64,000 nucleotides of DNA from an uncultured Luteolibacter sp. (GCA_964569415.1 CAZMUK010000001.1:16481-80480), one strand, 5' to 3'. Counted from the first letter of the stretch, positions 11,777-39,617 are shown. A program made the numbers and translations. The notes: a model not told the origin generated them from the sequence alone.

Positions 11777-11840
11777 CTCGACTTGCCGCCGCGCCAACGC
11801 AGCATCCCGGGCGGACCGCGCGCGGGCGGGAACCTTGCCG

Positions 11841-12872: not shown

Positions 12873-12893
12873 AGGGAAGATGGAACAGACATC

Positions 12894-14399: not shown

Positions 14400-14421
14400 C
14401 CATCCGCGGGCATCCCCGGCA

Positions 14422-16764: not shown

Positions 16765-18836
16765 ATGCCATTGGTTCTCGCGTGTCGACCGGATGCCGCA
16801 TCTTTGCCCTGTCCGCGCTTTTCAAGCTCCGTCATGTTCCTTCCCGCGCCCTCATGAATCAGGATCAAGGCACAGTGGGGATGCGGGTGGCTGTCGGCGG
16901 AAGGGTGGGAAACTATTTTTTCGTCCACGGTTGGCAGGGCCTGTGCCCGCCGAAGAAGGCCGTTTTCCGTTACGAACTTGTCTCCACTTCCGCGAGTTCC
17001 GCGCCGGAATTCGCGTTCAGCTCGAGGGTGCCGCGGAATGGTTCCGACGGTGCCCCGGATGCGCGGCGCGCGCGCCATGCAGGAGGGTTTCTCCATCTGT
17101 TTTGGATCAACGACGGGTACAAGGCCGATGTCTCCGCAGAGGCACCGATGCGTCTGTCCCTTTCAAACGGTCCGGGCCGGGATGCTCTTGCGGTGGTCGA
17201 CATCACCGTACTGGGCGAGAAGGACGGAGGTGCATTTCTCCGGGTGCTTGAGGCCAGCCGGACCTCTGAGGTGTGGCTGAACCGGGTGGTGCTTGAGATC
17301 GTGCCCCTGCTTGATGAAGCGTCCCGCAAGCGCTTTTACGCCGCGCTTCCCGCGGTAACGGCGTGGGAAAAGGCGGAGAAGCCGCTGCTCGCCAGTCTCG
17401 AGCGGCACGATGCCGGTGTGTCGCTCGCGGCCCGGAGCGCCTTTTACCATGGCGCCTCTGCGTGCGGCAGGGTGTCCGGCAAGCTGGGCCGACGGCTGGT
17501 GCGGTGTGTTGCCGCTCTGTCCTCGGCGTGGGATTCTGCATCCGATCGTCTCACCAATGCGGCGGAGGCTGCGCTGCACTTGGAGGATGAGAACCGCGCG
17601 CTGCTTGGCCAACTGCATCTTGTCCAAGAGGAGCTTGAGCTGCTGTTGCTGGAGAACCGCAGGATCCGTGGCGAGCGGGACGGCGCCGTCAGGGAACGGG
17701 ATTTGCTTCGCAAGGAGTCCCACGGTCGCGCGGCGAGGATCAGCGAGCTGGAGATCCGGCTCGCGGCATCCGGCGCGCAGGCGGATCCCGCCGCGGATGG
17801 CTCCCCATTGTCTCCGGAGCTTTGCGAGGCGGCCTTTTTAGTGGCATCCTCGGCAAATCCGACCGAGGCCGTCGCCACAACCCTGGGGGTCCAGGGGATC
17901 ACTCCGTGGAATCGGTTCCTTTTTCTGCGAGAGGTGGCCAAGCTTTTCTTCGCCGCGCGCAACCGGATGGTGGCCCTCGGGTTTATCGAGGAGGCCTCCC
18001 GTTCGCTCGACGGGCTTCCCGAAAGCTGCCGGGCGGTGCTTGTCCGCGACCTTCTCGCGATGGGCGGCGCGGAGGAGGCTTTTGAAATGGCGCTGCGCGG
18101 GATCGGTGGCGAGGCGGCCTATTCTCCGGAGGAAAGGCAACTCCTGCAAACCGCGCGCGACGCATTGCAGCAGAGGATTTACGACGACAAAGGCCATGGT
18201 CACGAAGTTCTGCTCTCGTTTCTCTCCGCCAACGCGGGAGCGATCCGCGAGGCCAAGGGCGGCGGTCCGCCGGTGCTCATCGAGATCGGGACCACCCGTG
18301 AGAGTGCCTCCGGACAAGGATCCACACGGCGGCTCATGGAATTCTGCCGCAAGGAGGGATTCCATTTTATCACGGTCGACATGGATTCGGCGAACGCGGA
18401 GATGGCGGCGCTGATGTTCCGTGAGAACGGCGTGCCTTTCGAGGCCGTGCATTCCAAGGGAGAGGACTTTCTCGCCGCCATGGAGGGAAGCATCGACTGC
18501 GTGTTTCTGGATGCCTATGACTTTGATCACGGCAGGCATAGCGAATTGCGACAGTCGCGTTACGAGAAGTTCCTCGGCGCGCGCATCAGCGATGCGGACT
18601 GCCACCGGATGCATCTCGACTGCGCCAAGGCGGTTGCCGCCCGGATGATGCCGTGGACGGTGGTTTGCATGGACGATACCTGGCTGGAGGACGGCCGGTG
18701 GGTCGCCAAGGGCGCGCTCGCCATGCCCTTTCTTCTCAATGAGGGGTTGGGCTTTCTCGATGTGAGGAACCGTTCCGCATTGTTGGGCGGACCGCAATGG
18801 TTCCGGCCCTGCCCACCCTCCCCTGCGCAACCATGA
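16761..18836 (+). CDS. Hypothetical protein: shared N-terminal domain, coiled coil, C-terminal SAM-methyltransferase-like domain
   Basis: Coiled coil EDENRALLGQLHLVQEELELLLLENRR; MTase-like VLIEIGTTRE, ITVDMD, DCVFLDAYD, VCMDDTW. The GTG start overlaps the previous stop; an alternative ATG is at 16854. Confidence 0.7.
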   Translation: MNAIGSRVSTGCRIFALSALFKLRHVPSRALMNQDQGTVGMRVAVGGRVGNYFFVHGWQGLCPPKKAVFRYELVSTSASSAPEFAFSSRVPRNGSDGAPDARRARHAGGFLHLFWINDGYKADVSAEAPMRLSLSNGPGRDALAVVDITVLGEKDGGAFLRVLEASRTSEVWLNRVVLEIVPLLDEASRKRFYAALPAVTAWEKAEKPLLASLERHDAGVSLAARSAFYHGASACGRVSGKLGRRLVRCVAALSSAWDSASDRLTNAAEAALHLEDENRALLGQLHLVQEELELLLLENRRIRGERDGAVRERDLLRKESHGRAARISELEIRLAASGAQADPAADGSPLSPELCEAAFLVASSANPTEAVATTLGVQGITPWNRFLFLREVAKLFFAARNRMVALGFIEEASRSLDGLPESCRAVLVRDLLAMGGAEEAFEMALRGIGGEAAYSPEERQLLQTARDALQQRIYDDKGHGHEVLLSFLSANAGAIREAKGGGPPVLIEIGTTRESASGQGSTRRLMEFCRKEGFHFITVDMDSANAEMAALMFRENGVPFEAVHSKGEDFLAAMEGSIDCVFLDAYDFDHGRHSELRQSRYEKFLGARISDADCHRMHLDCAKAVAARMMPWTVVCMDDTWLEDGRWVAKGALAMPFLLNEGLGFLDVRNRSALLGGPQWFRPCPPSPAQP

Positions 18837-19516
18837 GCATTGTGGCCCTGCTTCCCATGAAGGCCCATAGCGCGCGGGTCAGCGGCAAGAATTTCCGAGA
18901 ATTCGCCGGCAAACCGCTCTTCCGCTGGATCCTCGACACGCTTTTGTCCGTTGACGAGATCAGCTGTGTCGTGATCAACACCGATGCCCGCGGGATCCTT
19001 GCTGAAAAGGGCCTGCACGATGAGGAGCGCATCCTGATCCGCGACCGCGCTCCTGGGATCCGCGGCGACTTCGTGAGTATGAATCTGGTCATTGCCGACG
19101 ATATTGCGGCGGTTGCCGCCGATGCCTATCTCATGACCCACACCACCAATCCCCTCCTTTCGGCGGGAACGATCTGTGCTGCGATCGCAGCCTACCGAGA
19201 GGGCCTCGCCGCCTCCGCATGCGACAGCCTTTTCACCGTCAACCGATTCCAGACGCGCTTCTATCGGGGCGATGGTTCGCCGGTGAACCACGATCCCGAC
19301 AACCTTGTCCGCACGCAGGATCTCGAGCCATGGTTCGAGGAGAATTCCAACCTCTACCTTTTCTCGCGGAAAAGCTTCGCCGCCACCAAGGCCCGCATCG
19401 GATGCAGGCCGCTGTTGTTCGAGACCCCGAGGACCGAGTCCGCCGATATCGATGATCAGGAAGGCTGGGACATGGCCGAGAGTCTTGCGAAAGTGACCTT
19501 GCTACACCGGAAATGA
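18833..19516 (+). CDS. Acylneuraminate cytidylyltransferase family protein (CMP-ulosonate synthetase, NeuA-like)
   Basis: LLPMKAHSARVSGKNFREFAGKPL, VVINTD, HTTNPL, RTQDL, ENSNLYLF, DIDDQEGW. ATGA-coupled to the upstream gene. Confidence 0.88.
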   Translation: MSIVALLPMKAHSARVSGKNFREFAGKPLFRWILDTLLSVDEISCVVINTDARGILAEKGLHDEERILIRDRAPGIRGDFVSMNLVIADDIAAVAADAYLMTHTTNPLLSAGTICAAIAAYREGLAASACDSLFTVNRFQTRFYRGDGSPVNHDPDNLVRTQDLEPWFEENSNLYLFSRKSFAATKARIGCRPLLFETPRTESADIDDQEGWDMAESLAKVTLLHRK

Positions 19517-19598
19517 GCATGGGCTGCTAAGCACAGACTCCGTCCCGGCGGCGTCCGGGCAAGACGGCCCTGCTCCCGCACCCATCCCTCCCGAAACG

Positions 19599-21224
19599 AT
19601 GAACCCATACATCCGCCGCAATACCGACATTCTTCCGCTTCTCGCCCATTGCTCCGGCAGCGAGACGGAAGAGACGGGGATCATTGCCCATATCCTTTCC
19701 GGCCTCGGGCCGTTCTCCCCGTTCGCGGTCGAGTTCGGTCAGCGGATTCTCGGTGGCGGCACCGTGGGGGACACCGCGCGGGATTTCGGGTTTTCCCTGC
19801 TCAACATCGATGCGGAGGCCTCGTCGGACGGGGAGCGGATGCACCCGTGGAACGACGGCAGGGTCTGGACTCTTTTCAAGCGCAGGATCTGCCCGCTCAA
19901 TCTCAACACCCTGTTTGACGAGGGCGGGGTGCCGCAGGATCCGGCGGTTGCGGTGATCGACATCGACGGCATGGACTACTGGTGCATGCTGGCGCTGCTG
20001 GGCAGGCGGAGGCCGGCTCTTCTCATCGTGGAGTACAATTGCCATGTACCCTTTGGTATGTCCGCGAGTCTGGCTTTCAACCGCGGGCATGCCTACCGCC
20101 GCAACACGGATTACGGAGCCTCGTTGCGCGCGCTGACGGATCTCGCCGCGGCGCACGGATATCTTCCCGTTCACATCCACGGTCCGCTCAACTTGTACTT
20201 CGTGGATGCCGGGAAGGTGAGGGATCCGGGACTCAAGGAACTGTCCTCCAGGATCGCCGGTCTTTCCGCGGATGAGTTTGCGCGCGCCTCGGATACCGCT
20301 TTGTTCTACGACAGCTTTTTCGGCGGCAAGCGTCCGAGTTGGTTTGGCACGCCCCCGCCCGACACGGGCAAGGCGCCGTGGATCAGGCTCGACCGGATCG
20401 GCGGGGAAACCCAGCGGATATGCATCGGCGACATCGGGCTCGAGGTGTTCCGATCCGACCAAGGTGGTGATCATTACCGGCAGCGCGGGCACAAGGAGGA
20501 CGGGGTCTCGCCGTTGTGGTCTTTGATCCGCGACAGGCTGACGCCCGAAGTGTTGATCGATATCGGGGCGAACTACGGTTATACCACCTCGCTGCTTGCG
20601 AAGCGGCTCGGCGTCCGCCGTGTGGTGGCTGTGGAACCCGATCCGAGGCTTGCCGCGATCCTGCGATCAAACCTCCGGGAAAACATTCCCGCTATCGAGA
20701 TCACGGTGGCGGAGGCCTGCGTTTCCTCGAATCCCGATTGCGTCTCGGCGATCGGGATCAACCCGTGGTCCACCCAGGACAACCGTCTTCTCGCACAAAA
20801 AGACTGGCAGGAGGCGGTGGTGCGCTCAATCACCCTCGCGGACATCTTGTCCGAAGTCGGCCGGGAGCAGGCGCTGTTCATCAAATGCGACACCCAGGGA
20901 TACGATCTTGATGTGCTTGCATCCGGTCGCGAACAGCTTGCCGGCAGGGACAACTGGATGATGCGTTTCGAATTCGCCCCGATGTGGATCGAAAACCAGG
21001 GATTCGTCCCCGCGGAGCGACTCGCGGACCTTTGCGGGTCCTTTGATTTGTTCGAGGGTCCGCTTCGGACTCCTTGGAACGCTGGCTTCGGCGATCTGTT
21101 CTCCCGCCCGCTCCGCGCGGAGGAAGCCGAGGCTTTCGTGGCCTATGTCCGCGAACTCAACCACAAGGGCACGGGCTGGCTCGACCTCTACATCCTGCCG
21201 CGCGGCGCTCCTTTCCGTCTCTAG
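19599..21224 (+). CDS. Two-domain protein: N-terminal methyltransferase-like domain fused to an FkbM family methyltransferase
   Basis: N-terminal AVEFG...VIDIDGMDYW...IVEYN...YGASL; C-terminal IDIGANYGY, AVEPDP, FIKCDTQGYDLDVL. Confidence 0.75.
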   Translation: MNPYIRRNTDILPLLAHCSGSETEETGIIAHILSGLGPFSPFAVEFGQRILGGGTVGDTARDFGFSLLNIDAEASSDGERMHPWNDGRVWTLFKRRICPLNLNTLFDEGGVPQDPAVAVIDIDGMDYWCMLALLGRRRPALLIVEYNCHVPFGMSASLAFNRGHAYRRNTDYGASLRALTDLAAAHGYLPVHIHGPLNLYFVDAGKVRDPGLKELSSRIAGLSADEFARASDTALFYDSFFGGKRPSWFGTPPPDTGKAPWIRLDRIGGETQRICIGDIGLEVFRSDQGGDHYRQRGHKEDGVSPLWSLIRDRLTPEVLIDIGANYGYTTSLLAKRLGVRRVVAVEPDPRLAAILRSNLRENIPAIEITVAEACVSSNPDCVSAIGINPWSTQDNRLLAQKDWQEAVVRSITLADILSEVGREQALFIKCDTQGYDLDVLASGREQLAGRDNWMMRFEFAPMWIENQGFVPAERLADLCGSFDLFEGPLRTPWNAGFGDLFSRPLRAEEAEAFVAYVRELNHKGTGWLDLYILPRGAPFRL

Positions 21225-21255
21225 GATCCGAAACTTCGTTTCCCGTTCGCTTCCC

Positions 21256-22191
21256 ATGTCTGAGCTAAGCATCCTCTGCACTTGTCCGCCGATGATCGGC
21301 GGAATCGACCGGGTCCGTGACGAGTTCGCACGCCGCGGAGCGCGTGTAATCATCCCGGAATTCGCCCAGATCCTTTCCGAGGATGAATTGGTCGGGCTCG
21401 TTCCGCAGCATGACGGATGGATCATCGGTGATGATCCGGCTACTGCGCGCGTCTTTGCGGCGGGCCGTGCCGGGAAATTGCGCGCGGCCGTCAAGTGGGG
21501 GGTGGGAACCGACAATGTCGATTTCAAGGGGGCGGAGGCCGCCGGTCTGGATGTGGCCAATACCCCGGGCATGTTCGGCGAGGAGGTTTCCGATGTGGCT
21601 ATAGCGTACCTGATCGGTCTCGCGCGTGGCCTGTTCGCCATCGACCGCGGTGTGCGTGCCGGCGGATGGCCCAAGCCCTCGGGCATTTCACTCGCCGGCA
21701 AGACCGTGGCGCTGGCGGGGTACGGCAACATCGGCCGCACGACCGCGCGCAAGTTGCTTGCGTTTGGGATGAAGGTGATCGTTCACGACCCCGGCTGCTG
21801 GCCGGAGCCGGTCCCCGGGCTCGTGGGCCGCGGATGGCCCGAAGGGCTCGGAGAGGCCGACTTTGTGGTGCTCACCTGCGCACTCACGGCATCTAACCGG
21901 CGGATGGTCAATGCGGAGACCATTGCACTGATGAAACCCGGGGTGCGCATCGTCAATGTGAGCCGCGGCCCCCTTATCGACGAGGCTGCCCTCGCTGGGG
22001 CCCTCAGGTCGGGCCATGTGGCTGCAGCCGCGCTCGATGTCTTCGAGGAGGAACCATTGCCGCCCGACAATCCCTTGCGCGGTTTCGAGCAGTGCGTTTT
22101 CGGGTCGCACAACGGCTCGAACACGCGGGAGGCCGTAGACCGCACCTCTCTTCGCGCGATTGAACTCCTCTTCCTCAGGCTGGGAAAATGA
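21256..22191 (+). CDS. D-isomer-specific 2-hydroxyacid dehydrogenase (phosphoglycerate dehydrogenase-like)
   Basis: KWGVGTDNVD, GYGNIG, VNVSRGPLIDE, AALDVFEEEP, FGSHNGS. Confidence 0.9.
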   Translation: MSELSILCTCPPMIGGIDRVRDEFARRGARVIIPEFAQILSEDELVGLVPQHDGWIIGDDPATARVFAAGRAGKLRAAVKWGVGTDNVDFKGAEAAGLDVANTPGMFGEEVSDVAIAYLIGLARGLFAIDRGVRAGGWPKPSGISLAGKTVALAGYGNIGRTTARKLLAFGMKVIVHDPGCWPEPVPGLVGRGWPEGLGEADFVVLTCALTASNRRMVNAETIALMKPGVRIVNVSRGPLIDEAALAGALRSGHVAAAALDVFEEEPLPPDNPLRGFEQCVFGSHNGSNTREAVDRTSLRAIELLFLRLGK

Positions 22192-22295
22192 CGGTTGCAT
22201 GACCTGCCTGCAAGGGCTATGCGGAGTCGCTCATCGGGCCTGTTCCGGGGCCCGGAAGGCCCCTGATCGCCAGATATTCCCAGCCCCCACCGCTC

Positions 22296-23039
22296 GTGAA
22301 ACCAGCAGTCCTCATCACCGGCGCCCTCGGCGGGATCGGAAGGGCCCTGTGCGAGGAGTTTCACACGCATGATTTCCGCGTTATCGCGGTCGACAGGATG
22401 GAGGGGGATGTCCCATGTCACCGTTTCCTTCGCGGCGATGTGGCGGCCTTGGCCACCGATCCCGAGGCAAGGTGTTCCTTCGCCGCCGAAGTCCGCTCGG
22501 TCCTCGATGCCGAAGGGATGCCGCTGCAGGGAATCGTCAACAATGCCGCCGTGCAGGTCCTCGGGGGTGTCGATCAACTCGACATCCGCGATTGGCAGGA
22601 AACTCTGACGACTAATCTGCTCGGCCCCTTTTTCATGGCGCAGGCACTGCTGCCGGAACTTGAGAAGGTCCGCGGATCGGTGGTCAACATTTCAAGTATC
22701 CACGAGAAGCTCACCAAGCCCGGCTTTGTCGCGTACGCGACCTCCAAGTCCGCGCTCTCTGGTCTCACCCGTGCGATGGCTGTCGATCTCGGTGCCCGCG
22801 TGAAGGTCAATGCGATTTGTCCTGCGGCGATCAAGACCCCGATGTTGGAAGCCGGTTTTGCTGGGCGGCCGGAGGCTTTTGATGCTCTACATCACGCGCA
22901 TCCGGGCGGGCGCATCGGGCTGCCTGAGGAGGTGGCCCACCTTGCTCGCTATCTCGTTGCCGAGGCCCCCGACTTCCTTAGCGGAAGCTGTCTCGGACTC
23001 GACGGAGGGATCGCCGCACGGCTCTACGATCCGGCATAG
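22296..23039 (+). CDS. SDR family oxidoreductase
   Basis: TGALGGIG, VNNAA, VNISS, YATSK (YxxxK), VNAICP. GTG start. Confidence 0.9.
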   Translation: MKPAVLITGALGGIGRALCEEFHTHDFRVIAVDRMEGDVPCHRFLRGDVAALATDPEARCSFAAEVRSVLDAEGMPLQGIVNNAAVQVLGGVDQLDIRDWQETLTTNLLGPFFMAQALLPELEKVRGSVVNISSIHEKLTKPGFVAYATSKSALSGLTRAMAVDLGARVKVNAICPAAIKTPMLEAGFAGRPEAFDALHHAHPGGRIGLPEEVAHLARYLVAEAPDFLSGSCLGLDGGIAARLYDPA

Positions 23040-24111: not shown

Positions 24112-24153
24112 TCCCGCCCACACCCGATCCGCATCCACTCTCTCGATACCACG

Positions 24154-24879
24154 ATGCTTCGCTTCATCACAAAAAAGGAATACTGGGCCGCCGAGGACGA
24201 CGGCACCGTCGAACTCCTGCCCGCCGCTCCCTTCGCATGGCACCTCAAGAACATCCAGGATGCGGTGGCGATGTCCCGGCTGAGGGACTGCGCCGGCAAG
24301 GACATCGCCGAGATCGGTGGCGGAGACTCCCGAGTGCTGCATGCCGTATCGCGCGCCAACCGCGTCACCAACATCGACTCCTTCGAGGGGCTCGGCAACG
24401 GGCCGGTCGGAAAGCCGGAAAACCCGGCCTACCGGATCGTTCCCTGCCTCATCGGTTCCTTCGACGACCGCCTTGCCCCGGAATCGTTCGACATCGTGTT
24501 CTCGATCTCGGTGGTGGAGCATGTTCCGGGCGAGGCTCTCGCGGATTTTCATCGCGACTGCCTGCGCATTCTCCGTCCCGGCGGATTGCTGTTCCATCTC
24601 ATTGATATCTATCTCCGGGACGATCCGGAGCGCAACAGCGGGGCGGGAGAGCGGATCGCCCGTTACGCGGAATGGTTCGCTCACGACCAGTGCGAGCCCT
24701 TCGATCCGGGGCAGGTGCTGGATCCGCACCCGCTGCGGTTTTCGTGCGGTTTCGCGAGCAATCCCGACAATGTGATGAACCGCTGGAACAAACTCGCGCC
24801 GTCATTGGCGGAGCTCCGGGCGGAAGCACAGAGCGTGAGCCTCATTTTCTCCGCCCGGCGCAAAGCGTCCGCGCCATGA
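24154..24879 (+). CDS. Class I SAM-dependent methyltransferase (Methyltransf_11-like)
   Basis: DIAEIGGGDSR, SFDIVFSISVVEHV, RILRPGG. Confidence 0.8.
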   Translation: MLRFITKKEYWAAEDDGTVELLPAAPFAWHLKNIQDAVAMSRLRDCAGKDIAEIGGGDSRVLHAVSRANRVTNIDSFEGLGNGPVGKPENPAYRIVPCLIGSFDDRLAPESFDIVFSISVVEHVPGEALADFHRDCLRILRPGGLLFHLIDIYLRDDPERNSGAGERIARYAEWFAHDQCEPFDPGQVLDPHPLRFSCGFASNPDNVMNRWNKLAPSLAELRAEAQSVSLIFSARRKASAP

Positions 24880-27800
24880 CCGTTTCCATTATCACGCCGA
24901 GCTTCAATCAGGCGGAATTCCTTCCCGCGTGCCTCGATTCGGTCGCGCGGCAGACCGTGCGCCCGCTCGAGCATATCGTGCTGGATCCCGGCTCGACCGA
25001 CGGCAGCAGGGAGATCGCCGCCGCCTGCCCCGGTGTGACCCTGATCGCCGAACCGGACGAGGGTCAGGCGGACGCCGTCGGCAAGGGATTTGCCCTCGCC
25101 CGTGGGGAGGTGATCGGTTGGCTCAATTCGGACGACCAGTACGCGAGCGACGATGTGCTGGCCGCGGTGCTCGCGCGCTTCGGCGGTGAGGATAAGCCCG
25201 ACATCGTTTACGGAACGGGCAGCTACATCGACGAGCAAGGCAAGGTTCTGCGTTCCGCGTATGTGAATGGCGCGCCCGATACCCTCGCCGACCGCCTGCA
25301 CCGCGAGGTGGGGATCCTGCAACCGGCGGTTTTTCTCCGCAGGGAAGCAGTGTTGAGGCTGGGCCCGCCGTCGAAGGACCTCTCCTACTGCATGGACTAC
25401 GAGTACTGGATCCGGGCGCTCAAGGCGGGTCTGCGTTTCGCCCACATCGCCAGGCCTCTTGCCCTTGCGCGGTATTACCCGCGCAACAAAACCTTCGGCA
25501 AGCGCGGGGAGAGTTATCACGAGGTATGCCGGATGCTGAAAGGCCGTTTCGGCTATGTTCCGGTCGAATGGTTGCGGCGCTATGCGGAGTTCCGGGTGAA
25601 GGGTCACGACGGGATTCTAAACTACGAGAGCGGGGCAGGGGAGAACACTGCCATCATGGATGAGGTGGCACGCCTCCTCCACGCCTTTGACAACGACCAT
25701 TCCGCGTTGTCCCTGCTCGGCGGGGAGGCGGTTCCCCGTGGCGCGGAATCGACGCTCGCCGCCATGCGAGATGCGGGAATCCCGCTGCGTCCCGTGGCAC
25801 GGGAGGTGGATGTGGATACCAAGTCGCTCCCGGGCAAGGTTTGTTACACCGTCGGCGCCCGTCGATGGGCCTTCGAAAAAAACTGGAAGGAAGGCGCGGT
25901 CGCCCGATCAGCGGAGGAATTCCGGCGCATCCGGAAGGACCGATCCTCCGACACCTGCGTGGTGGTGGGTAACGGGCCGAGTCTCAACTTGTGCGACCTG
26001 TCTTTGTTGGAGGGGGCGGATGTGTTCATTTCCAATTATGCCTTTCTCAAACCGGAGCTCGCCGCGAGGGCGACCTACTTCTCGGTGGTGAACCATCTCG
26101 TCGCTGAGCAGGGAGCGGACCACATATCGCTGTTCCGCGGGGCGCGGAAGTTCTTCCCGTACTGGCTTCGCTATTGCATAGCCGACGACCCCGATGCGTT
26201 CTTCGTCAACTCGGTCGGCTATGCGGAATTCAGCACCGACATCTTCGAAAACATCTCGTGGCGTAGCACGGTCACCTTCTTCAACCTGCAACTGGCGTAC
26301 GGCCTCGGCTACCGCAAGGTCCTGATGATCGGGTTCGACCATCACTACAAGCAGGATCCAGGGGTCAAGGAGGGAGACGAGCTCTTTTGCCGCGAGGATG
26401 ATGCGAATCACTTTGATCCCGGGTATTTCAAGAACAAGCTCTGGCAGGCTGCGGATGTCGGCAATATGGAACGAATGTATCTTCTCGCCAAAACCGCCTT
26501 TGAGGCCGACGGGCGCGAGATCGTGAACTGTACGGTAGGCGGCCATCTTGAGGTGTTCCGGCGCGGAGATCTTGCGGCGGAGCTGGCAGCCGCTCCGACG
26601 GGAGCGGTTTCCCCGCGCGGAGGCGATGAAGCGGAGCTGTCGATGCCGAGGCTTTTGGTGATCGACAGCACTCCCATCGGCTCGGTCTCCGCAACCGGCC
26701 AACTCAAGCAGACTTATCTTGCGGGTTGGCCGGAGGATCGCCTGTTGCAGATCTGGAGCGGGCATGGCGGCGCGGCGATTCTCCACGCGCTCCGCCCCGG
26801 TGAAACGGTCGAGCAGAGCCGATTGCAGCCGCTTGATCTTGATGCCGTTTCGGATCTTTGCCGCGCCTTCGGTCCGGAAGCGGTGTACTTTCGTCCGGTG
26901 GATGATTCTTTGCTGATGAGTGCCGCGGAGCGGATCATCGCCGAGAGCCGCGTTCCTTTCGCGATCCACATGATGGATGACTGGCCGGGGCGCCTGAGGG
27001 GAGGCGATCCCGCGCGATTCCGGGTGCTTGATGAGTCGTTGCGGAGATTAATCTCCCGCGCTTCCCTCAGGTGGAGCATCTGCGATCGGATGTCCGAGGA
27101 GTACCTTGAGCGTTACGGTCACGGTTTCGAGGCTCTTGCCAACGGTGCGGACCCCACCTGTTTTCCCGCGGCAAAGGGCCCGGAGGAGCGGCCGCGGAGA
27201 CGACCGTTCCGGCTGCGCTATCTCGGGGCGCTGGCGAGGGACATGACTTTCGACAGCGTGATGGACATCGCGCGTGCGGTGGCGGATCTGCAGGGCGAGG
27301 TTGCGATCGAATTCGACATCCACACAATGGATTGGTGTCGCGCCGATGCCGAGCGCATCTGTGCCGGGCTTGCCGGGGTGCGGGTGTGCGGCTTGGTCCC
27401 CTGGGAGGAGTACCATGCCACGCTCTCCGACTCGGACTGCGTGGTGATCGCGTATAATTTTGATCCAGCGAGCATTGCCTACACGAGATTGTCGTTCGCG
27501 AACAAGCTGCCGGAATGTCTCGCATCGGGTGCGGTGCTGCTCGCCTACGGACCCGGCGAGGTGGCGTCGATCGGCTATCTCCGGGCTTCGGGTTGTGCGT
27601 GTGTAGTTGATGCGAGGGATCCTGTGCTTCTCAAGCGATCGCTGGCGGGTCTGGTGGGCGACCCCGAATCCTGCCGTCTGCTTGCCGCAAAGGCGAGGGA
27701 TCTCGCAGAGCGCTGCTTTTCGCCGGAAGATGTCCGCGGGCGGTTCCGGGAAGGCATTGCAAGGCTCGCTCGCTCATCTTCGCCGATACGGGGTCTGCGG

Positions 27801-29264
27801 GGTATGCCCGGTCCGTATCCGCGCGAGGATGGCGCACATTTTGACGAAACCGACGCGGTGGCGGCCCTTTTCGGGGATCGTGCCGAACCCGGCGTCATGA
27901 TTGATGTCGGAGCCCATCACGGGACCGCCCTCGCCCGGTTCCTCGACCGCGGCTGGCGGATCTGGGCCTTCGAGCCGGACGCGGAGAACAGGTCCCGCCT
28001 CGAGGAACATGTTCAGGGGCACTCCTTGGCTGCGAATGTGGTTCTCGACAGCCGTTGTGTAGGCAAGGAGGCGCGGACCGGACTTCCGTTCTACACCTCC
28101 GATGAGAGTACCGGGATCAGCGGCCTTTCCGCTTTCCGCGACAGTCATCGCGAGGCGCGCCGTGTCGACATGGTTTCCCTGACGGAGTTCTTCAAGGGGC
28201 GCGATATGCCTGTGGTGGATTTTCTCAAGATCGATACGGAGGGTCACGATCTTTTCGTACTTCAGGGATTCCCATGGGATCGCGACCGTCCTGCGGTGAT
28301 CGAGTGCGAGTTTGAGGACATCAAGACGGTTCCGCTCGGGTACACGATGCGGGACATGGCGGATTTTCTGGAGGGAAAAGGATACACGGTCTATGTGAGC
28401 GAGTGGCATCCGATCCTGCGCTACGGGCAGCGGCATGATTGGAACCGGTTGCGGAGATATCCGTGCGGCCTTTCTTGTCCGGACGCATGGGGCAACCTGC
28501 TTGCCTTTGCATCTCCGCCCTCCGAGGAAGCCGTGTGTGCTGCGATCCGCTCGGTACTCGGTTTCCATCGCCCGAAAGCGGGTTCCGGCTCCGCTGCGGT
28601 TACCCCGTGCGGGATTTGCGGGACCCTTCCGGTTTCGTTTGCAGCGACCCCCCATTTCGTTCGCGAGGGGGAAACCCTTTGGTCCGTGCACCTTGGTGAA
28701 TCTGCCGGAACTGCCTCGCTGACCCTTGATTTCGCGAAGCGCGGTGAAGGCGTGGTTCGTTGGGTCGGGTTGGTTCGCATCGAGGCGGATCGGGCGATCG
28801 CCGTCACTGTGTCCCTTGCGTGCGCCGGTCACCCGGGTGGTGCCGGTGGCATGCGCAAGGTCTTGCTGGCTCCCGATGTGCCGCAGACCCTGATGCTTGT
28901 CCACGAGGCAGCGGACGGGCACGCGGGTGCGGGCATTCGCTTGGAGACGGAGGCCGGCACCGGTCCGGATGTCCGGATTTCCCTCTCGGATGTCTGGGTT
29001 CTTCCGGTGCCATCCCGGGAGAAAGGGGGCGACGCACCGAATCATCCGGTGCGGCAAGGAAACCGGCATTTCCGGATGGCGAGATATGCCGAGAGTCTGA
29101 TGCATTACCTCGAGGCGAGGTGTGCACTGGGCATGAAGGCGATGGATTTCAACATCCGGCTTGCCCTTTCCCGTTTGGGAGTGACCGATACAGGGGAAGT
29201 TCGCAAGGTTCTCGCCGCAGTATCGCCGCCTCTCTCCCGCAAGAGTCCGGCTCTTCGGTCTTGA
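24876..29264 (+). CDS. Giant multi-domain glycosyltransferase: GT2, DUF115/GT42-like, GT-B (GT4-like), FkbM methyltransferase, C-terminal domain (1462 aa)
   Basis: MTVSIITPSFNQ/WLNSDD (GT2); DTCVVVGNGPSL..IGFDH (about 25950-26570); LSFANKLPECLASG (GT-B); MIDVGAHHG/LKIDTEGHD (FkbM). ATGA-coupled start at 24876. Confidence 0.88.
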   Translation: MTVSIITPSFNQAEFLPACLDSVARQTVRPLEHIVLDPGSTDGSREIAAACPGVTLIAEPDEGQADAVGKGFALARGEVIGWLNSDDQYASDDVLAAVLARFGGEDKPDIVYGTGSYIDEQGKVLRSAYVNGAPDTLADRLHREVGILQPAVFLRREAVLRLGPPSKDLSYCMDYEYWIRALKAGLRFAHIARPLALARYYPRNKTFGKRGESYHEVCRMLKGRFGYVPVEWLRRYAEFRVKGHDGILNYESGAGENTAIMDEVARLLHAFDNDHSALSLLGGEAVPRGAESTLAAMRDAGIPLRPVAREVDVDTKSLPGKVCYTVGARRWAFEKNWKEGAVARSAEEFRRIRKDRSSDTCVVVGNGPSLNLCDLSLLEGADVFISNYAFLKPELAARATYFSVVNHLVAEQGADHISLFRGARKFFPYWLRYCIADDPDAFFVNSVGYAEFSTDIFENISWRSTVTFFNLQLAYGLGYRKVLMIGFDHHYKQDPGVKEGDELFCREDDANHFDPGYFKNKLWQAADVGNMERMYLLAKTAFEADGREIVNCTVGGHLEVFRRGDLAAELAAAPTGAVSPRGGDEAELSMPRLLVIDSTPIGSVSATGQLKQTYLAGWPEDRLLQIWSGHGGAAILHALRPGETVEQSRLQPLDLDAVSDLCRAFGPEAVYFRPVDDSLLMSAAERIIAESRVPFAIHMMDDWPGRLRGGDPARFRVLDESLRRLISRASLRWSICDRMSEEYLERYGHGFEALANGADPTCFPAAKGPEERPRRRPFRLRYLGALARDMTFDSVMDIARAVADLQGEVAIEFDIHTMDWCRADAERICAGLAGVRVCGLVPWEEYHATLSDSDCVVIAYNFDPASIAYTRLSFANKLPECLASGAVLLAYGPGEVASIGYLRASGCACVVDARDPVLLKRSLAGLVGDPESCRLLAAKARDLAERCFSPEDVRGRFREGIARLARSSSPIRGLRGMPGPYPREDGAHFDETDAVAALFGDRAEPGVMIDVGAHHGTALARFLDRGWRIWAFEPDAENRSRLEEHVQGHSLAANVVLDSRCVGKEARTGLPFYTSDESTGISGLSAFRDSHREARRVDMVSLTEFFKGRDMPVVDFLKIDTEGHDLFVLQGFPWDRDRPAVIECEFEDIKTVPLGYTMRDMADFLEGKGYTVYVSEWHPILRYGQRHDWNRLRRYPCGLSCPDAWGNLLAFASPPSEEAVCAAIRSVLGFHRPKAGSGSAAVTPCGICGTLPVSFAATPHFVREGETLWSVHLGESAGTASLTLDFAKRGEGVVRWVGLVRIEADRAIAVTVSLACAGHPGGAGGMRKVLLAPDVPQTLMLVHEAADGHAGAGIRLETEAGTGPDVRISLSDVWVLPVPSREKGGDAPNHPVRQGNRHFRMARYAESLMHYLEARCALGMKAMDFNIRLALSRLGVTDTGEVRKVLAAVSPPLSRKSPALRS

Positions 29265-29298
29265 TCGTTGTACGGGGCTTCGCCTACAAGCGGGGGCG

Positions 29299-30762
29299 AT
29301 GACCACCCCGGATCCTGCAGTCCCTGTTTTTCAGATCAGCGGGAGCACCTATCGTCTGGTGTCGTGCTTTCATGATTCGCGTTCGTATCCCGGACTGGCG
29401 CCCGCCGCCGCCGCGGTCCGTCCCATGATGGCCGATCTCGGTTTTCCGACCGTGCATTGGGTGGATGGAAGGCACTACCTTGCCGACGGGCGCTGGAGGG
29501 ATGCCGCTCTGGAGCGCGCTGCGGAGCGCCTCGACCGGTTGGCGCAGACACGCCGGGGCGATACCTGTGTGGTGGTGGGAAACGGACCAAGCCTCAAGCA
29601 CGTGGACCTCGATCTCCTCGACGGATACGATGTGTTTCTCTCCAACTACGCCGCGACGGATCCCGTGCTGCGGTCCAAAGCGCGCTACTTGAGCGTGGTC
29701 AACCCGTTCGTCGCCGAACAGGACCCGCGGTTGTTTGACGAACTGGCTGGCCTTGTCCGGTTCTTTCCCTATTGGCTCAGGTACTGCCTCAAGGAGGATG
29801 AGGATGTGCTCTTCCTCAATGAAATCGGTGGAGAACCCTTCTTCAGCACCAATGTTTCACAAAAGGTTTCCGGACACTCTACGGTCACCCATTTCAACCT
29901 CCAGATCGCCTATTCGCTCGGGTACCGCAAGGTGGTGCTGATCGGGATCGACAATACCTACCACCAACCTGTCGAGGCAAAAGAGGGCGATGTGCTTACC
30001 TGCGAGGGTGACGATCCGAATCATTTCCGTCCGGACTATTTCCGGGGGAAAAAATGGCAGGCGGCGGATCCGTCTCGGATGGAGCTCGTGTACCGCCTGT
30101 GCCGGGATGCGTACGATGCCGATGGCAGGGAAATTGTCAATTGCACTGCGGGTGGGGCCCTCGAGGTCTATCGGCGGGGCGGACTGGCGCTTGAACTTCC
30201 GCGGAATCCGCCCCCTCCGGCATCTTCCCGGCCAACCGACAGACCCGGCATCGCGGCGGATCTGGATTGGGCCTCTTGGATGCGCAACCGTCATCGTGGC
30301 CAGTCCTGCTCGATCGTGGTTGACGCGCCACTGCCCGGGGAATGGTGGTGGACTTCGACGGATGCGGCGCTGAGTGTCGATCAAAGGGACCTCGGCTTCG
30401 AGTGTCCCTCGGTCCGGCCGCACTACCTACTGATGACCGATGCCGCGGTAATCCGGCAGTCGGCACCGGACATCCGCTTGCTTCGCTGCGTGAAGTTCCT
30501 TGCGTGCGCGGACGCTCCCCGGAGCCTTGCGGGAGATCCGCAGGCGCATGGCATTGATTCCTCTACCCTGCCGGATCCGCTTGGTTTGGGCCGGTGTTTT
30601 CCGGAAAGCGCCGATGCGAGACTGCTTCTCGCGCTCCGCTTGGCCGCGCATCTCGGCTTCGCGAGTTTGCGGGTTCCCGTTCGTTTCGAGCCGCTCTTTA
30701 CCGGGTGTGCCTCCTTGCGCGAGGCTTTGGCGGGCGGCGGCATCTCGTTGGCGTTTCGCTGA
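29299..30762 (+). CDS. DUF115 (MAF_flag10/MptE-like, GT42-like fold) domain protein with a degenerate second copy
   Basis: DTCVVVGNGPSL, SGHSTVTHFNLQIAYSLGYRKVVLIGIDN, NHFRPDYF, IVNCTAGGALEVYRRG, nearly colinear with the domain in the giant GT. Confidence 0.75.
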   Translation: MTTPDPAVPVFQISGSTYRLVSCFHDSRSYPGLAPAAAAVRPMMADLGFPTVHWVDGRHYLADGRWRDAALERAAERLDRLAQTRRGDTCVVVGNGPSLKHVDLDLLDGYDVFLSNYAATDPVLRSKARYLSVVNPFVAEQDPRLFDELAGLVRFFPYWLRYCLKEDEDVLFLNEIGGEPFFSTNVSQKVSGHSTVTHFNLQIAYSLGYRKVVLIGIDNTYHQPVEAKEGDVLTCEGDDPNHFRPDYFRGKKWQAADPSRMELVYRLCRDAYDADGREIVNCTAGGALEVYRRGGLALELPRNPPPPASSRPTDRPGIAADLDWASWMRNRHRGQSCSIVVDAPLPGEWWWTSTDAALSVDQRDLGFECPSVRPHYLLMTDAAVIRQSAPDIRLLRCVKFLACADAPRSLAGDPQAHGIDSSTLPDPLGLGRCFPESADARLLLALRLAAHLGFASLRVPVRFEPLFTGCASLREALAGGGISLAFR

Positions 30763-30780
30763 ATGCGGCCGCGAGCCGTT

Positions 30781-34373: not shown

Positions 34374-35099
34374 TCAACCGTTGTTGTGGCGAAGGACTCC
34401 GGCCGGGGCCTGATCCCGAAGGGATTCGTAGAGAGCGAGGTCGGGCGCGAAACGGGTCCTCAACCGGGCAAGGAGCGCCTCTGGCAGGGAGGCGATCTCC
34501 GCCGCCTCCTGCCCGCGTGGTCCAGCCGATTCCCCCCGGCGCAGCCATCGCCCCAGCCCCGCGCCCCCGCCTTTTCCCCCAGAGCGATTTGCGCGCGGAA
34601 TCCTGATCTCCTTTCCTGTTTTGCTCGAAAGGAAGGCGGCCAGCGAATCCATTTGGTCGAGGCGGAAGATCCGGTTGACCCCGATGGTTCCGTTGCCCAG
34701 TGTGACGAACTCGTATTGCGATCCCAGTCTTGCGAACTCCGGTTGCTCGGGATTCAGGTAGGCTTCCGCGAAATCCCGGAATGTAAGTCCCCCGGTGTGA
34801 TGAAGATGCTGCGGGTGGGAGCGGTCCGCCAGCTGCGCCCGGCTCCGGTACTGGTACCAACTGCGAAGCCAGTCGATCGGCTCGCGGATGATGCAGAAGG
34901 TCTCGATCTCGCCCGCCGGATCGGCCTTGTGGAGCAACGGGCGGATGTGGCTGTGGAATTTCCGCGCGCTGACATGCTTGAGGGAGGGATGCCCCGCCAG
35001 TCTTGCGTCCGCATAGGGCTTGAGCGCGCGCTCGACCGAGGTCGATCCGCATTTGGGCACGCAGAGGAAGGCAAACTTGTGTTTGACGCTGAGCAACAT
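34374..35099 (-). CDS. Sulfotransferase family 2 protein
   Basis: FLCVPKCGSTSVE, FCIIREPIDWLRSWY, FAPDLALY. Confidence 0.82.
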   Translation of the reverse strand: MLLSVKHKFAFLCVPKCGSTSVERALKPYADARLAGHPSLKHVSARKFHSHIRPLLHKADPAGEIETFCIIREPIDWLRSWYQYRSRAQLADRSHPQHLHHTGGLTFRDFAEAYLNPEQPEFARLGSQYEFVTLGNGTIGVNRIFRLDQMDSLAAFLSSKTGKEIRIPRANRSGGKGGGAGLGRWLRRGESAGPRGQEAAEIASLPEALLARLRTRFAPDLALYESLRDQAPAGVLRHNNG

Positions 35100-35118
35100 C
35101 AGGGGCTGGTGGTGGGAT

Positions 35119-37028: not shown

Positions 37029-37039
37029 GGTGTTGCCGT

Positions 37040-37843: not shown

Positions 37844-37874
37844 GGTTGGCGGAGGCGGGTGGTCCGCTCCTTGC

Positions 37875-38351: not shown

Positions 38352-38368
38352 CGGGTGGATGGTGCGGT

Positions 38369-39442: not shown

Positions 39443-39617
39443 AGCGAGGAGGATACGGCGGCGGTTCCGAGAGGCTGATGCCGCTGGGTAGAGGCGCATA
39501 CCGGACCGGGTTTTGAACCGCCGGACGCAGGGTTTGTCAAGCACCGCAGGCATTCATCGGCAGCGGTGGCACGAGGAATTCCTGATGGATCGTCGCCGCG
39601 GGTACGAGCGGCAGGCT

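What the first reader, a model, noticed from the sequence alone, without database searches (positions are those of the whole stretch)
24876..29264. 1462-aa assembly-line glycan enzyme: GT2, ulosonate-transferase-like, GT-B and methyltransferase domains
Seen: four recognisable catalytic modules in one frame (GT2 about 24876-25600; GNGPS/DUF115 about 25950-26570; GT-B about 26650-27770; FkbM about 27840-28540), then an unassigned domain and a short TPR-like helix pair. Known: ABC-dependent capsules are often built by multi-domain polymerases. Inference: this is the capsule polymerase, combining elongation and in-line O-methylation; I do not recognise this domain combination.
Basis: partly seen in the sequence, partly recalled or inferred. 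Interest (0 to 1): 0.62.

Follow-up and report, generated by a model that had tools for sequence, protein, structure and literature searches.

The report
Five-module capsule glycan assembly enzyme
One 1462-residue protein in a Verrucomicrobial capsule locus joins three sugar-adding modules, a methylating module and a sugar-binding-like module; it belongs to a large, unstudied enzyme family found in many phyla that probably builds an acidic, methylated surface sugar chain.

Summary

- **Domains:** GT2 (1-240), a sialyltransferase-like DUF115 domain (335-575), a GT4-like GT-B (590-975) and FkbM (985-1232). Candidate catalytic motifs are at least 95% conserved in 62-122 homologues.
- **The "unassigned" end:** it folds as a CBM4/16/61-like beta-sandwich plus TPR-like helices.
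- **Not an artefact:** twelve other cluster representatives keep the same five-module order at 42-55% identity.
- **Not rare:** 792 cluster representatives match the DUF115-like part at E<=1e-30, in at least 30 module arrangements and about eight phyla. I found none characterised.
- **Conserved core:** GT2 plus the sialyltransferase-like domain. It travels with a cytidylyltransferase / 2-hydroxyacid-dehydrogenase / SDR cassette, which is also present 2-6 kb upstream here.
- **Context:** elsewhere the family sits beside Wzm/Wzt exporters, usually with a CBM-sized tail. Here it sits in a complete KpsMTED/C/S locus.

Most likely it is a cytoplasmic chain-building enzyme that adds a hexose, a CMP-activated ulosonic acid and a third sugar, and O-methylates the product. 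Whether it acts repeatedly (polymerase) or once (cap or adaptor) is unresolved. I class it as a new variant of a known kind.

The parts
24876..29264 (+). Whole gene, 1462 aa (P0001). It has no predicted membrane helix, and its start is translationally coupled (ATGA) to the upstream methyltransferase gene.
   Evidence: highest 19-residue hydropathy 1.3
24876..25595 (+). GT2 (GT-A fold, inverting type) module, residues 1-240. D37/D42, the S85-D86-D87 'DxD' motif and D174 (in MDYEYW) are at least 95% conserved.
   Evidence: Pfam PF00535 3e-22. PDB: K4CP chondroitin polymerase 2.3e-14, WrtF fucosyltransferase 2.3e-13. NSDD aligns with DSDD and MDYEY with VDYDM of K4CP. Conservation in 122 sequences.
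25596..25877 (+). Conserved helical linker and beta-hairpin, residues 241-334. It is always present between the GT2 and the sialyltransferase-like module.
   Evidence: AF2 model with short helices, pTM 0.86 together with the next domain; alignment A1
25878..26600 (+). Sialyltransferase-like (DUF115/MptE-like; GT42/GT73/Maf superfamily) module, residues 335-575. Motifs: VVGNGPSL (363-370), N387, SWRSTV...LGYRKVLMIGFDHHY (461-491), D509-x-N-H512-F.
   Evidence: homologues carry precomputed PF01973 and PF27901 (WaaZ_KDO_III) hits
26643..27800 (+). GT-B, GT4-like module, residues 590-975. Conserved MDDW (700-703), NFD (861-863), N876-K877, E880.
27828..28571 (+). FkbM-type SAM-dependent methyltransferase module, residues 985-1232. 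Motifs: D1010-VGA-x-x-G1016, E1033, K1118-I-D-x-E-G.
28632..29012 (+). Beta-sandwich (jelly-roll) domain with the fold of carbohydrate-binding modules CBM4/16/61, residues 1253-1379.
   Evidence: AF2 pLDDT 83; Foldseek 1gu3 1.2e-6 and many other CBMs; no sequence-family match
29043..29219 (+). TPR-like helical hairpins, residues 1390-1448. The C-terminal stretch 1386-1462, which includes a further ~14-residue tail, is strongly basic (pI 10.8).
29299..30762 (+). Next gene, 487 aa. Residues about 60-300 are a paralogue (50% identity) of the sialyltransferase-like module.
24154..24879 (+). Upstream class-I methyltransferase (Methyltransf_11). Orthologues (36-49% identity) lie next to the big enzyme in most related loci.
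18797..23039 (+). Co-conserved cassette: divergent CTP_transf_3 cytidylyltransferase (18797-19516), an FkbM fusion protein (19599-21224), 2-hydroxyacid dehydrogenase (longest frame 21043-22191) and a glucose-1-dehydrogenase-like SDR (22296-23039). It is the presumed source of the CMP-sugar donor.
35099..41018 (-). Export and priming genes of the locus: KpsE, KpsT (232 aa, no CBM tail), KpsM, a small ORF, KpsD and KpsS. KpsC lies at 7048-9228(-).

Best explanation
P0001 is a soluble or peripheral cytoplasmic multi-enzyme of the locus's ABC-transporter (KpsMT)-dependent glycan pathway. It works as a chain-building enzyme with one active site per linkage.

- **GT2 module:** adds a sugar from an NDP-sugar with inversion.
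- **Sialyltransferase-like module:** adds a CMP-activated 2-ulosonic acid. The donor is most likely the product of the divergent cytidylyltransferase / 2-hydroxyacid-dehydrogenase / SDR cassette 2-6 kb upstream, otherwise CMP-Kdo.
- **GT4-like module:** adds a third, locus-specific sugar.
- **FkbM module:** O-methylates the product.
- **C-terminus:** the CBM-like beta-sandwich holds the growing glycan, and the basic TPR-like tail docks the enzyme to partners or to the anionic membrane.

The chain grows on the lipid-linked poly-Kdo primer made by KpsS/KpsC and leaves through KpsMT-KpsE-KpsD.

Shown here: the domain identities, their intact conserved motifs, the locus context and the gene linkage across phyla. 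Inferred: the donors, the order of action, repeated (polymerase) rather than single-pass use, and glycan binding by the beta-sandwich.
For: - **One frame with intact modules:** four catalytic modules in a single frame, with their candidate motifs at least 95% conserved in 62-122 homologues.
- **GT2 resembles polymerising enzymes:** its closest solved relatives are polymerising GT2s of ABC-dependent pathways, namely K4CP of the E. coli K4 capsule and WrtF of the R. tropici O-antigen (PMC12595478).
- **Sialyltransferase-like module:** it matches Cst-I/Cst-II by profile and by fold. Its motif region also matches WaaZ, the Kdo III transferase (PF27901). DUF115 Maf enzymes transfer CMP-activated nonulosonic acids and Kdo (bioRxiv 10.1101/2020.06.03.131540).
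- **Linked CMP-sugar cassette:** the CTP_transf_3 / 2-HADH / SDR cassette lies within 10 kb of the family in 28 of the 49 close loci (L001-L049), and also beside many of the more distant DUF115-only relatives.
- **No NeuB route:** the window's genome has no NeuB-type synthase. It has a separate canonical CTP_transf_3, probably KdsB.
- **Capsule locus:** a complete Kps gene set surrounds the gene.
- **Cytoplasmic:** no membrane helix.
- **One module per linkage:** arrangements such as ST-GT2-ST-GT2 and GT2-ST-ST-ST-GTB-FkbM fit this logic.
- **Precedent:** multi-module polymerases are established in these pathways (PMC11231755).
Against: - No biochemical data exist for any family member, and no glycan structure is known for any host I found.
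- The window holds at least five other GT modules, so this need not be the main polymerase.
- The GT2-ST pair is unusually conserved (47-61%) for a serotype-specific polymerase.
- In other genomes it is tied to Wzt exporters with CBM-sized tails, which favours a cap-making role.
- None of 83 related loci has Kps genes within 10 kb.
- The Pfam MptE-like score is below the family cut-off, and the fold match to Cst-I is weak (TM 0.30/0.41).
- The first Glu of the GT4 EX7E motif is missing.
Confidence: 0.45

Rival explanations
1. Cap or adaptor builder (single pass). The conserved GT2 plus sialyltransferase-like pair and the FkbM module add one defined, methylated hexose-ulosonate unit at the non-reducing end (a chain terminator or export signal) or at the junction with the primer. 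Other GTs of the locus make the repeat.
For: - The pair is 47-61% identical across about eight phyla, although the neighbouring sugar-precursor genes differ (dTDP-Rha, GDP-6-deoxyhexose, heptose).
- It is linked to a conserved CMP-sugar cassette and to several methyltransferases.
- 31 of 37 related loci with a Wzt-type ATPase show a C-terminal tail of at least 160 aa, the size of the cap-recognising CBM.
- Known caps are Kdo or methyl(-phosphate) groups (PMC11231755).
Against: - There is no long coiled-coil, which the cited paper calls a characteristic marker of terminators; the AF2 linker has only short helices.
- KpsT in the window has no CBM, and Kps-type capsules are not known to need a cap (PMC11231755).
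- Some related loci have few other GTs to serve as a polymerase.
- Tandem ST modules suggest more than a single terminal residue.
Confidence: 0.3
2. The enzyme serves a different glycan from the Kps-exported capsule, for example an O-antigen-like or glycoprotein glycan. It only lies between the kps genes because surface-glycan genes cluster.
For: The family is otherwise found with Wzm/Wzt, never with KpsE/D/C/S, in 83 loci. The gene is absent from all 40 relatives searched, so it arrived by transfer.
Against: - No Wzm/Wzt is in the window.
- The gene lies in a same-strand operon that converges on kpsMTE, flanked by KpsC and KpsS.
- A Sulfitobacter plasmid combines a short KpsT-sized ABC ATPase, an ABC permease, a sulfotransferase, the cassette and DUF115-like genes.
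Confidence: 0.12
3. The DUF115-like module is not a glycosyltransferase. It would be structural, or have a nucleotide-binding role such as that of the MptE pterin kinase, leaving the protein with two GTs plus a methyltransferase.
For: The Pfam family is named after a kinase. The score is below the cut-off, the fold similarity to Cst-I is modest, and Maf (5mu5) was not among the top 50 fold matches.
Against: - The best profile matches and the two best fold matches are all sialyltransferases.
- The nucleotide-binding GNGPS motif and the LGY..(I/L).G.D motif are shared with Cst-II and WaaZ.
- 34 positions are at least 95% conserved, including D488, D509 and H512.
- The module is tightly linked to a cytidylyltransferase gene.
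Confidence: 0.05
4. Assembly artefact or read-through fusion of separate genes.
Against: Twelve other cluster representatives from independent samples have the same five modules in the same order, 42-55% identical end to end. There is no stop or frameshift.
Confidence: 0.02

Closest known systems
WbbB of Raoultella terrigena / Klebsiella pneumoniae O12 (GT99 + GT102 + GT103)
   Same: A single cytoplasmic polypeptide of an ABC-transporter-dependent pathway. It carries a CMP-ulosonate (Kdo) transferase plus two further GT modules (PMC11231755).
   Different: The folds are unrelated: the GT99 module is a modified GT-B, whereas this one is a GT42/DUF115-like module. WbbB has a long coiled-coil ruler; this protein has none. 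This protein adds an FkbM methyltransferase and a CBM-like domain. WbbB works with a Wzt-CBM exporter, the window with KpsMT.
Cst-I / Cst-II (GT42) of Campylobacter jejuni, WaaZ (Kdo III transferase) and Maf flagellin glycosyltransferases (DUF115)
   Same: They share the GNGPS nucleotide-binding motif and the (S/T)...A..LGY..(I/L).G.D motif. They are the best profile and fold matches. All use CMP-activated 2-keto-3-deoxy sugar acids.
   Different: The match is weak: 16% identity and TM 0.3-0.4. P0001 is below the Pfam cut-off. The module is embedded in a 1462-aa multi-enzyme, the acceptor is presumably a polysaccharide, and the donor is unknown. The genome has no NeuB-type synthase.
K4CP/KfoC chondroitin polymerase of E. 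coli K4 (two GT2 modules) and WrtF of Rhizobium tropici (GT2 fucosyltransferase)
   Same: They are the closest solved sequence relatives of the GT2 module (2.3e-14 and 2.3e-13). The DxD-type and general-base motifs align. Both act in chain polymerisation of ABC-dependent glycans (PMC12595478).
   Different: Identity is only about 25-30%, and donor specificity cannot be carried over. Neither enzyme has sialyltransferase-like, FkbM or CBM modules.
Hexosyl-/sialyltransferase capsule polymerases of Neisseria meningitidis serogroups W and Y (from my own knowledge, not tested here)
   Same: One polypeptide in a Kps-type system alternates a hexosyltransferase and a sialic-acid (nonulosonic acid) transferase module to make a hexose-ulosonate copolymer. 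This is the nearest working analogy for the polymerase reading.
   Different: The families differ (GT4 + GT97 there). Those enzymes have no methyltransferase or CBM, and no sequence relation was seen in my PDB or profile searches.
WbdD (E. coli O9a) and the ORF6 terminator of K. pneumoniae O7
   Same: Both place a SAM-dependent methyltransferase inside an ABC-dependent glycan assembly protein. ORF6 of O7 also carries GT2 polymerase modules (PMC11231755).
   Different: Those enzymes are methyltransferase-kinase pairs on a coiled-coil ruler that make a methyl-phosphate cap. Here the module is FkbM-type, with no kinase and no coiled-coil.

Membership tests
GT2 (Pfam PF00535, GT-A inverting glycosyltransferases) | Profile match above the curated cut-off | tested here: met
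   79.7 bits against 23.3, residues 4-128
GT2 (Pfam PF00535, GT-A inverting glycosyltransferases) | DxD-type metal/diphosphate motif and acidic general base | tested here: met
   N84-S-D86-D87 aligns with DSDD of K4CP. D174 (MDYEY) aligns with the VDYD motif, whose Asp is the general base (PMC12595478). Both are at least 95% conserved.
MptE-like / DUF115 (PF01973), including GT42, WaaZ and Maf | Pfam profile match above the gathering score | tested here: not met
   25.4 bits against a cut-off of 34.6, and only profile positions 5-38. Homologue P0062 reaches 36.1 bits. I therefore file it as a distant relative, not a member sensu stricto.
MptE-like / DUF115 (PF01973), including GT42, WaaZ and Maf | GNGPS nucleotide-binding motif and the downstream LGY..(I/L).G.D motif, in that order | tested here: met
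   VVGNGPSL 363-370 and STVTFFNLQLAYGLGYRKVLMIGFDH 463-489 align with Cst-I/Cst-II residues about 5-51 and 129-164. The WaaZ model matches 451-489.
MptE-like / DUF115 (PF01973), including GT42, WaaZ and Maf | Modified GT-A (sialyltransferase) fold | tested here: inconclusive
   The two best PDB fold matches are Cst-I (E 1.3e-3, prob 1.00, TM 0.30/0.41) and ST6GALNAC2 (E 0.039). There is nothing else below E 0.07, and Maf 5mu5 is not in the top 50.
MptE-like / DUF115 (PF01973), including GT42, WaaZ and Maf | Catalytic base (His188 in Cst-II; Asp/Glu in Maf) and a CMP-sugar donor | not testable with these tools
   H512 in the conserved D509-x-N-H-F motif and D488 are candidates. No alignment reached the Cst-II His.
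GT4-like GT-B glycosyltransferases | Profile match to family models or solved members | tested here: inconclusive
   P0001 has no Pfam hit. NCBIfam WcaI gives 25.5 bits against a cut-off of 276. The profile of 12 homologues hits GT4 structures at 2.8e-6 to 1e-3, but only over the C-terminal Rossmann half. Homologues carry PF13524/PF13692.
GT4-like GT-B glycosyltransferases | EX7E motif | tested here: not met
   The first Glu is replaced (…RLSFANKLPE880CLASG…). Only the second acidic residue is kept (E880, at least 95% conserved). N876-K877 are at least 95% conserved.
FkbM methyltransferases (PF05050 / TIGR01444) | Profile matches above the cut-offs, and SAM-binding motif I | tested here: met
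   73.5 bits against 22.7 and 63.8 against 37.7. D1010-VGA-HH-G1016, E1033 and K1118-IDTEG are conserved.
Carbohydrate-binding modules of the CBM4/16/61 beta-sandwich type | Beta-jelly-roll fold | tested here: met
   1gu3 E 1.2e-6 with TM 0.64 on the target; 177 PDB matches at E<=1e-3, and the listed top 50 are dominated by CBMs.
Carbohydrate-binding modules of the CBM4/16/61 beta-sandwich type | Sugar binding, or sequence membership of a CAZy CBM family | not testable with these tools
   There is no sequence match to any PDB chain in the beta part. There is no profile relation to the Wzt C-terminal tails of related loci (hhalign prob 0.7%).
Polymerase-terminator proteins of Wzt-CBM systems (WbbB/WbdD type) | Extended coiled-coil ruler in the same protein | tested here: not met
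   Only short helices lie between the modules in the AF2 model of 205-590. No other long helical stretch was seen.
Polymerase-terminator proteins of Wzt-CBM systems (WbbB/WbdD type) | Exporter ATPase with a C-terminal CBM | tested here: not met
   The window's KpsT is 232 aa with no tail, and the window has no Wzm/Wzt. The feature is met in 31 of 37 related loci.
Group-2-like (Kps) ABC-dependent capsule locus | KpsM, KpsT, KpsE, KpsD, KpsC and KpsS present | tested here: met
   ABC2_membrane; ABC_tran; Poly_export/SLBB/Wza_C; Capsule_synth once (KpsS) and twice (KpsC). KpsE is assigned by position only, with no Pfam hit.

The most novel reading that the evidence does not exclude
The protein and its family would mark a cross-phylum, undescribed glycan system with three features:
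- A sialyltransferase-like module that founds a new glycosyltransferase family.
- A donor that is a CMP-activated, non-3-deoxy 2-ulosonic acid made without any NeuB/KdsA-type synthase. The route would be aldose, then lactone (SDR), then aldonate (MBL or SMP-30 lactonase), then 2-keto-aldonate (2-hydroxyacid dehydrogenase), then the CMP adduct (divergent cytidylyltransferase).
- In this Kps-type locus, a CBM-like domain carried by the synthase itself that takes over the chain-end sensing which Wzt's CBM performs in the related loci.
Probability: 0.2. Interest if true: 0.75.

Novelty: new variant of a known kind. Interest (0 to 1): 0.5.

Why it matters
Multi-module enzymes are how ABC-transporter-dependent capsules and O-antigens are built, but the characterised ones come from a few pathogens.

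This family is large. 792 clusters at 50% identity match the sialyltransferase-like part at E<=1e-30, and 2884 match at E<=1e-10. It spans cyanobacteria, Planctomycetota, Verrucomicrobiota, Chloroflexi, Nitrospirae, Desulfobacterota and alpha- and gammaproteobacteria. It shuffles five modules like building blocks. It is annotated only as 'FkbM family methyltransferase'.

If studied, it could yield:
- a new CMP-ulosonate transferase family;
- the identity of the acid sugar made by the linked cassette;
- a natural set of module swaps for glycoengineering.

It would also test whether Kps-type capsules can use cap or ruler logic, so far known only from O-antigen systems.

Tried and rejected
- **Synthase CBM versus Wzt CBM:** an hhalign comparison of alignment A2 with 26 Wzt tails gave probability 0.7%. 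I rejected a sequence-level relation.
- **A WbdD-like coiled-coil partner as a conserved neighbour:** the LHxVQEELE-type motif of the window's 691-aa protein occurs in only 1 of 83 related loci, and the protein has no orthologue there. It is not a family feature.
- **Kps genes next to relatives:** none in 83 loci.
- **Vertical conservation:** none of 40 relatives has the gene; they have only generic GT2 hits.
- **A NeuB-type synthase in the genome as donor source:** none found.
- **GT137, the K. pneumoniae O4 alpha-Kdo terminator, as a relative:** its published description (two beta/alpha/beta domains resembling methyltransferases, no GT similarity) does not fit this module.
- **Literature:** six searches found no characterised member of this architecture.
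- **Plasmid collection:** six distant hits, annotated as hypothetical or MptE-like.
- **PF27901 (WaaZ_KDO_III):** it is not in the local Pfam copy, so I could only rely on precomputed hits and on the NCBIfam WaaZ model.


Full report
**Observation.** The frame from ATG 24876 to the stop at 29262-29264 is open for 1462 codons. Its ATG overlaps the stop of the upstream methyltransferase gene (24154-24879). The next gene starts 35 bases after its stop, so it sits inside a long plus-strand operon (about 11517-31350). Homologues start at the same GT2 N-terminus. No 19-residue window reaches membrane-helix hydropathy (maximum 1.3), so the protein is soluble or peripheral.

**Domains.**
- **GT2.** Pfam gives GT2 at residues 4-128 (3e-22).
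  - The GT2 segment is closest, among solved structures, to the second GT2 module of the E. coli K4 chondroitin polymerase (2.3e-14). Next is WrtF, a GT2 fucosyltransferase that polymerises the Rhizobium tropici O-antigen (2.3e-13).
  - The NSDD and MDYEY motifs align with the DxD and general-base motifs of K4CP (PMC12595478).
- **DUF115-like.** P0001 reaches only 25 bits against Pfam MptE-like (cut-off 34.6).
  - A profile of 16 homologous segments hits the GT42 sialyltransferases Cst-I and Cst-II at E about 6e-5, through GNGPS and the LGY..(I/L).G.D motif in the right order.
  - The NCBIfam model of WaaZ (Kdo III transferase) touches the same motif. Homologues carry precomputed PF01973 and PF27901 (WaaZ_KDO_III) hits.
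  - An AlphaFold model of residues 205-590 (pLDDT 87, pTM 0.86) has Cst-I as best PDB match (E 1.3e-3, TM 0.30/0.41) and human ST6GALNAC2 second. Nothing else falls below E 0.07.
  - The resemblance is real but distant.
- **GT-B.** The region matches GT4 enzymes only by profile and only in its C-terminal half (2.8e-6). It lacks the first Glu of EX7E.
- **FkbM.** Pfam places it at residues 1010-1171 (3e-20) and TIGR01444 agrees; both scores are above their cut-offs.
- **C-terminus.** Four helices follow at 1390-1448 with weak TPR matches, and the C-terminal stretch 1386-1462 is very basic (pI 10.8).
- **Conservation.** In 62-122 homologues the expected functional residues are at least 95% conserved:
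  - GT2: D37, D42, D86, D87, D174.
  - Sialyltransferase-like: N366-L370, N387, D488, D509, H512.
  - GT-B: D701, D702, N876, K877, E880.
  - FkbM: D1010, G1012, G1016, E1033, K1118, D1120, E1122.

**The family.**
- A word-indexed search returned 365 relatives. The best are 55% and 50% identical over the full length.
- An exhaustive profile search with the linker plus sialyltransferase-like part found 792 cluster representatives at E<=1e-30, 2884 at E<=1e-10 and 5435 at E<=1e-3.
- Among the 243 sequences retrieved, the five modules occur in at least 30 orders:
  - ST alone: 48.
  - GT2-ST-FkbM: 36.
  - GT2-ST-GTB-FkbM: 20.
  - GT2-ST-GTB: 18.
  - GT2-ST-FkbM-CBM/TPR: 15.
  - The window's exact order: 13, including the window.
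  - Also ST-GT2-ST-GT2 and up to three ST modules in a row.
- GT2, the helical linker and ST form the constant unit (query residues 1-575 in most hits).
- Named hosts include Oceanicoccus, Methylocaldum marinum, Hyphococcus, Synechococcus, Microcoleus, Thiocystis violacea, Hyphomonas, Shimia and Roseovarius. MAG hosts include Phycisphaerales, Lentisphaerae, Nitrospirae, Anaerolineae, Desulfosarcina and Verrucomicrobiota.
- The only source names are 'FkbM family methyltransferase', 'glycosyltransferase' (in several wordings) and 'hypothetical protein'.
- None of 40 relatives of the window's organism (24 in the same genus) has the gene, so it is a transferred, strain-specific part of the locus.

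**Context here.**
- The gene lies in a complete Kps-type locus:
  - KpsC at 7048-9228(-) and KpsS at 39618-41018(-).
  - KpsD at 38369-39553(-) and KpsM at 37040-37843(-).
  - KpsT at 36345-37040(-), 232 aa with no extra domain.
  - KpsE next to it, assigned by position only.
- The same region holds five further GT modules: a GT4, a GT2_4, a GT14-like, a 799-aa GT2 protein and a 487-aa paralogue of the ST module directly downstream (50% identity).
- It also holds several methyltransferases and four sulfotransferase-like genes.
- The product is therefore likely a complex, acidic, methylated and sulfated glycan. This protein is the largest of several transferases, not the only one.

**Context elsewhere.**
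- In eight loci with gene tables and 83 loci scanned with my own BLAST, the family travels with a recurring set. Its parts are a divergent CTP_transf_3 cytidylyltransferase, a 2-hydroxyacid dehydrogenase and a glucose-1-dehydrogenase-like SDR. An MBL-fold protein, a ~320-aa GT2, a small MptE-like protein and a Methyltransf_11 gene often accompany them.
- The window has the cytidylyltransferase, dehydrogenase, SDR and Methyltransf_11 in the same order, 2-6 kb upstream.
- The window's genome has no NeuB-type synthase. It has a second, canonical CTP_transf_3 elsewhere, probably KdsB.
- This linkage is the best pointer to the donor of the ST module: a CMP-activated acid sugar, either the cassette's product or CMP-Kdo.
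- In a Sulfitobacter plasmid the cassette includes an SMP-30 gluconolactonase. Together with the aldose-dehydrogenase-like SDR and the MBL proteins, this suggests a synthase-free route to a CMP-2-keto-aldonic acid. This is inference only. An earlier AI note (e1-725641) had the same idea, and that is not independent support.
- None of the 83 loci has KpsE/D/C/S within 10 kb. Instead 37 have a Wzt-type ATPase, and 31 of those carry a tail of at least 160 residues, the size of the cap-recognising CBM of O-antigen exporters.

**Mechanism.**
- I take the protein to be a cytoplasmic chain-building multi-enzyme with one active site per linkage:
  - GT2 (inverting, NDP-sugar donor).
  - ST-like (CMP-ulosonate donor).
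  - GT4-like (third sugar).
  - FkbM (O-methylation).
  - The beta-sandwich holds the glycan, and the basic TPR tail docks the enzyme.
- In this Kps locus the acceptor would be the KpsS/KpsC-made poly-Kdo lipid, perhaps after a transition step.
- The nearest working analogies are WbbB of Klebsiella O12, which has a Kdo transferase plus two polymerase GTs in one chain (PMC11231755), and, from my own knowledge, the hexosyl/sialyl-transferase capsule polymerases of meningococcal serogroups W and Y.
- What I cannot settle is whether the conserved GT2-ST pair acts repeatedly (polymerase) or once (cap or adaptor).
  - Favouring repeated use: the Kps context, the polymerase-like GT2 relatives, and the scarcity of other GTs in some loci.
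  - Favouring single use: the unusually high conservation of the pair across loci with different sugar-precursor genes, the many methyltransferases, and the Wzt-CBM linkage.
- The absence of a coiled-coil ruler separates it from the classical terminators.
- My odds:

| Reading | Odds |
|---|---|
| Chain-building polymerase-type enzyme | 0.45 |
| Single-pass cap or adaptor builder | 0.30 |
| Serves a different glycan from the capsule | 0.12 |
| ST-like module not a transferase | 0.05 |
| Assembly artefact | 0.02 |

**Novelty.** The kind of thing, a multi-module glycan assembly enzyme of an ABC-dependent pathway, is well known. This particular combination and its family appear in none of the papers I could search. 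The ST-like module is too far from GT42, GT73 and Maf to be filed in any of them. I rate it a new variant of a known kind, of moderate interest, with a more novel reading still open: a new CMP-ulosonate pathway and transferase family, and a CBM borne by the synthase.

**Limits.**
- There is no biochemistry and no glycan structure.
- Only two of the six regions were modelled.
- No model was made of the whole protein.

Noticed in passing
window 18797-23039 (+); also L001 1951-4323, L002 19934-22287, L003 1241-3634, L086 5476-7890, L087 16913-20446: A cytidylyltransferase (CTP_transf_3, PseF-like but far below cut-off), a 2-hydroxyacid dehydrogenase and a glucose-1-dehydrogenase-like SDR form a cassette conserved across phyla next to DUF115-like transferases. 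An MBL-fold protein often accompanies them, and once an SMP-30 gluconolactonase does. This suggests a NeuB/KdsA-independent route to a CMP-activated 2-keto sugar acid. The genome has no NeuB homologue.
   Followed up: partly
L002-L078 (related loci), e.g. L003 5831-7111: In 31 of 37 related loci the Wzt-type ABC ATPase has a C-terminal tail of 160-380 residues (CBM size). The window uses a short KpsT and full Kps export genes, a combination seen in none of the 83 related loci.
   Followed up: partly
window 16761-18836 (+) and 14365-16764 (+): The 691-aa protein has a coiled-coil-like stretch of about 70 residues (…LLGQLHLVQEELELLLLENRRIRGERD…) and a C-terminal methyltransferase-like region. 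About 100-190 residues of its N-terminal region are ~30% identical to the N-terminal region of the neighbouring 799-aa GT2 protein. It could be a WbdD-like ruler or terminator, but it has no orthologue in related loci.
   Followed up: partly
window 23311-24111 (+): This 266-aa ORF has no family hit, but it is 30% identical over about 95 residues to the adjacent Methyltransf_11 protein (24154-24879). It is probably a divergent second methyltransferase.
   Followed up: no
L087 (Sulfitobacter sp. D7 plasmid p4SUD7, NZ_CP020698.1 28220-57284): A plasmid-borne locus combines an ABC permease, a short ABC ATPase, a 'sugar transporter', a sulfotransferase, a 2021-aa glycosyltransferase, two DUF115-like proteins, the CMP-sugar cassette and a gluconolactonase. 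It is the closest overall parallel to the window's Kps plus sulfotransferase setting, and it is in a cultured strain.
   Followed up: no
window 27774-29306 (-): A 510-codon open frame lies on the opposite strand over the 3' part of the gene. It is a shadow frame of the GC-rich (63%) coding sequence, not a gene.
   Followed up: no
G000 contig C1 and relatives G001-G040: The multi-domain gene is absent from all 24 same-genus and 16 same-order genomes searched. Its best relatives (50-55% identity) come from unrelated metagenomes, which points to horizontal acquisition of this part of the capsule locus.
   Followed up: partly
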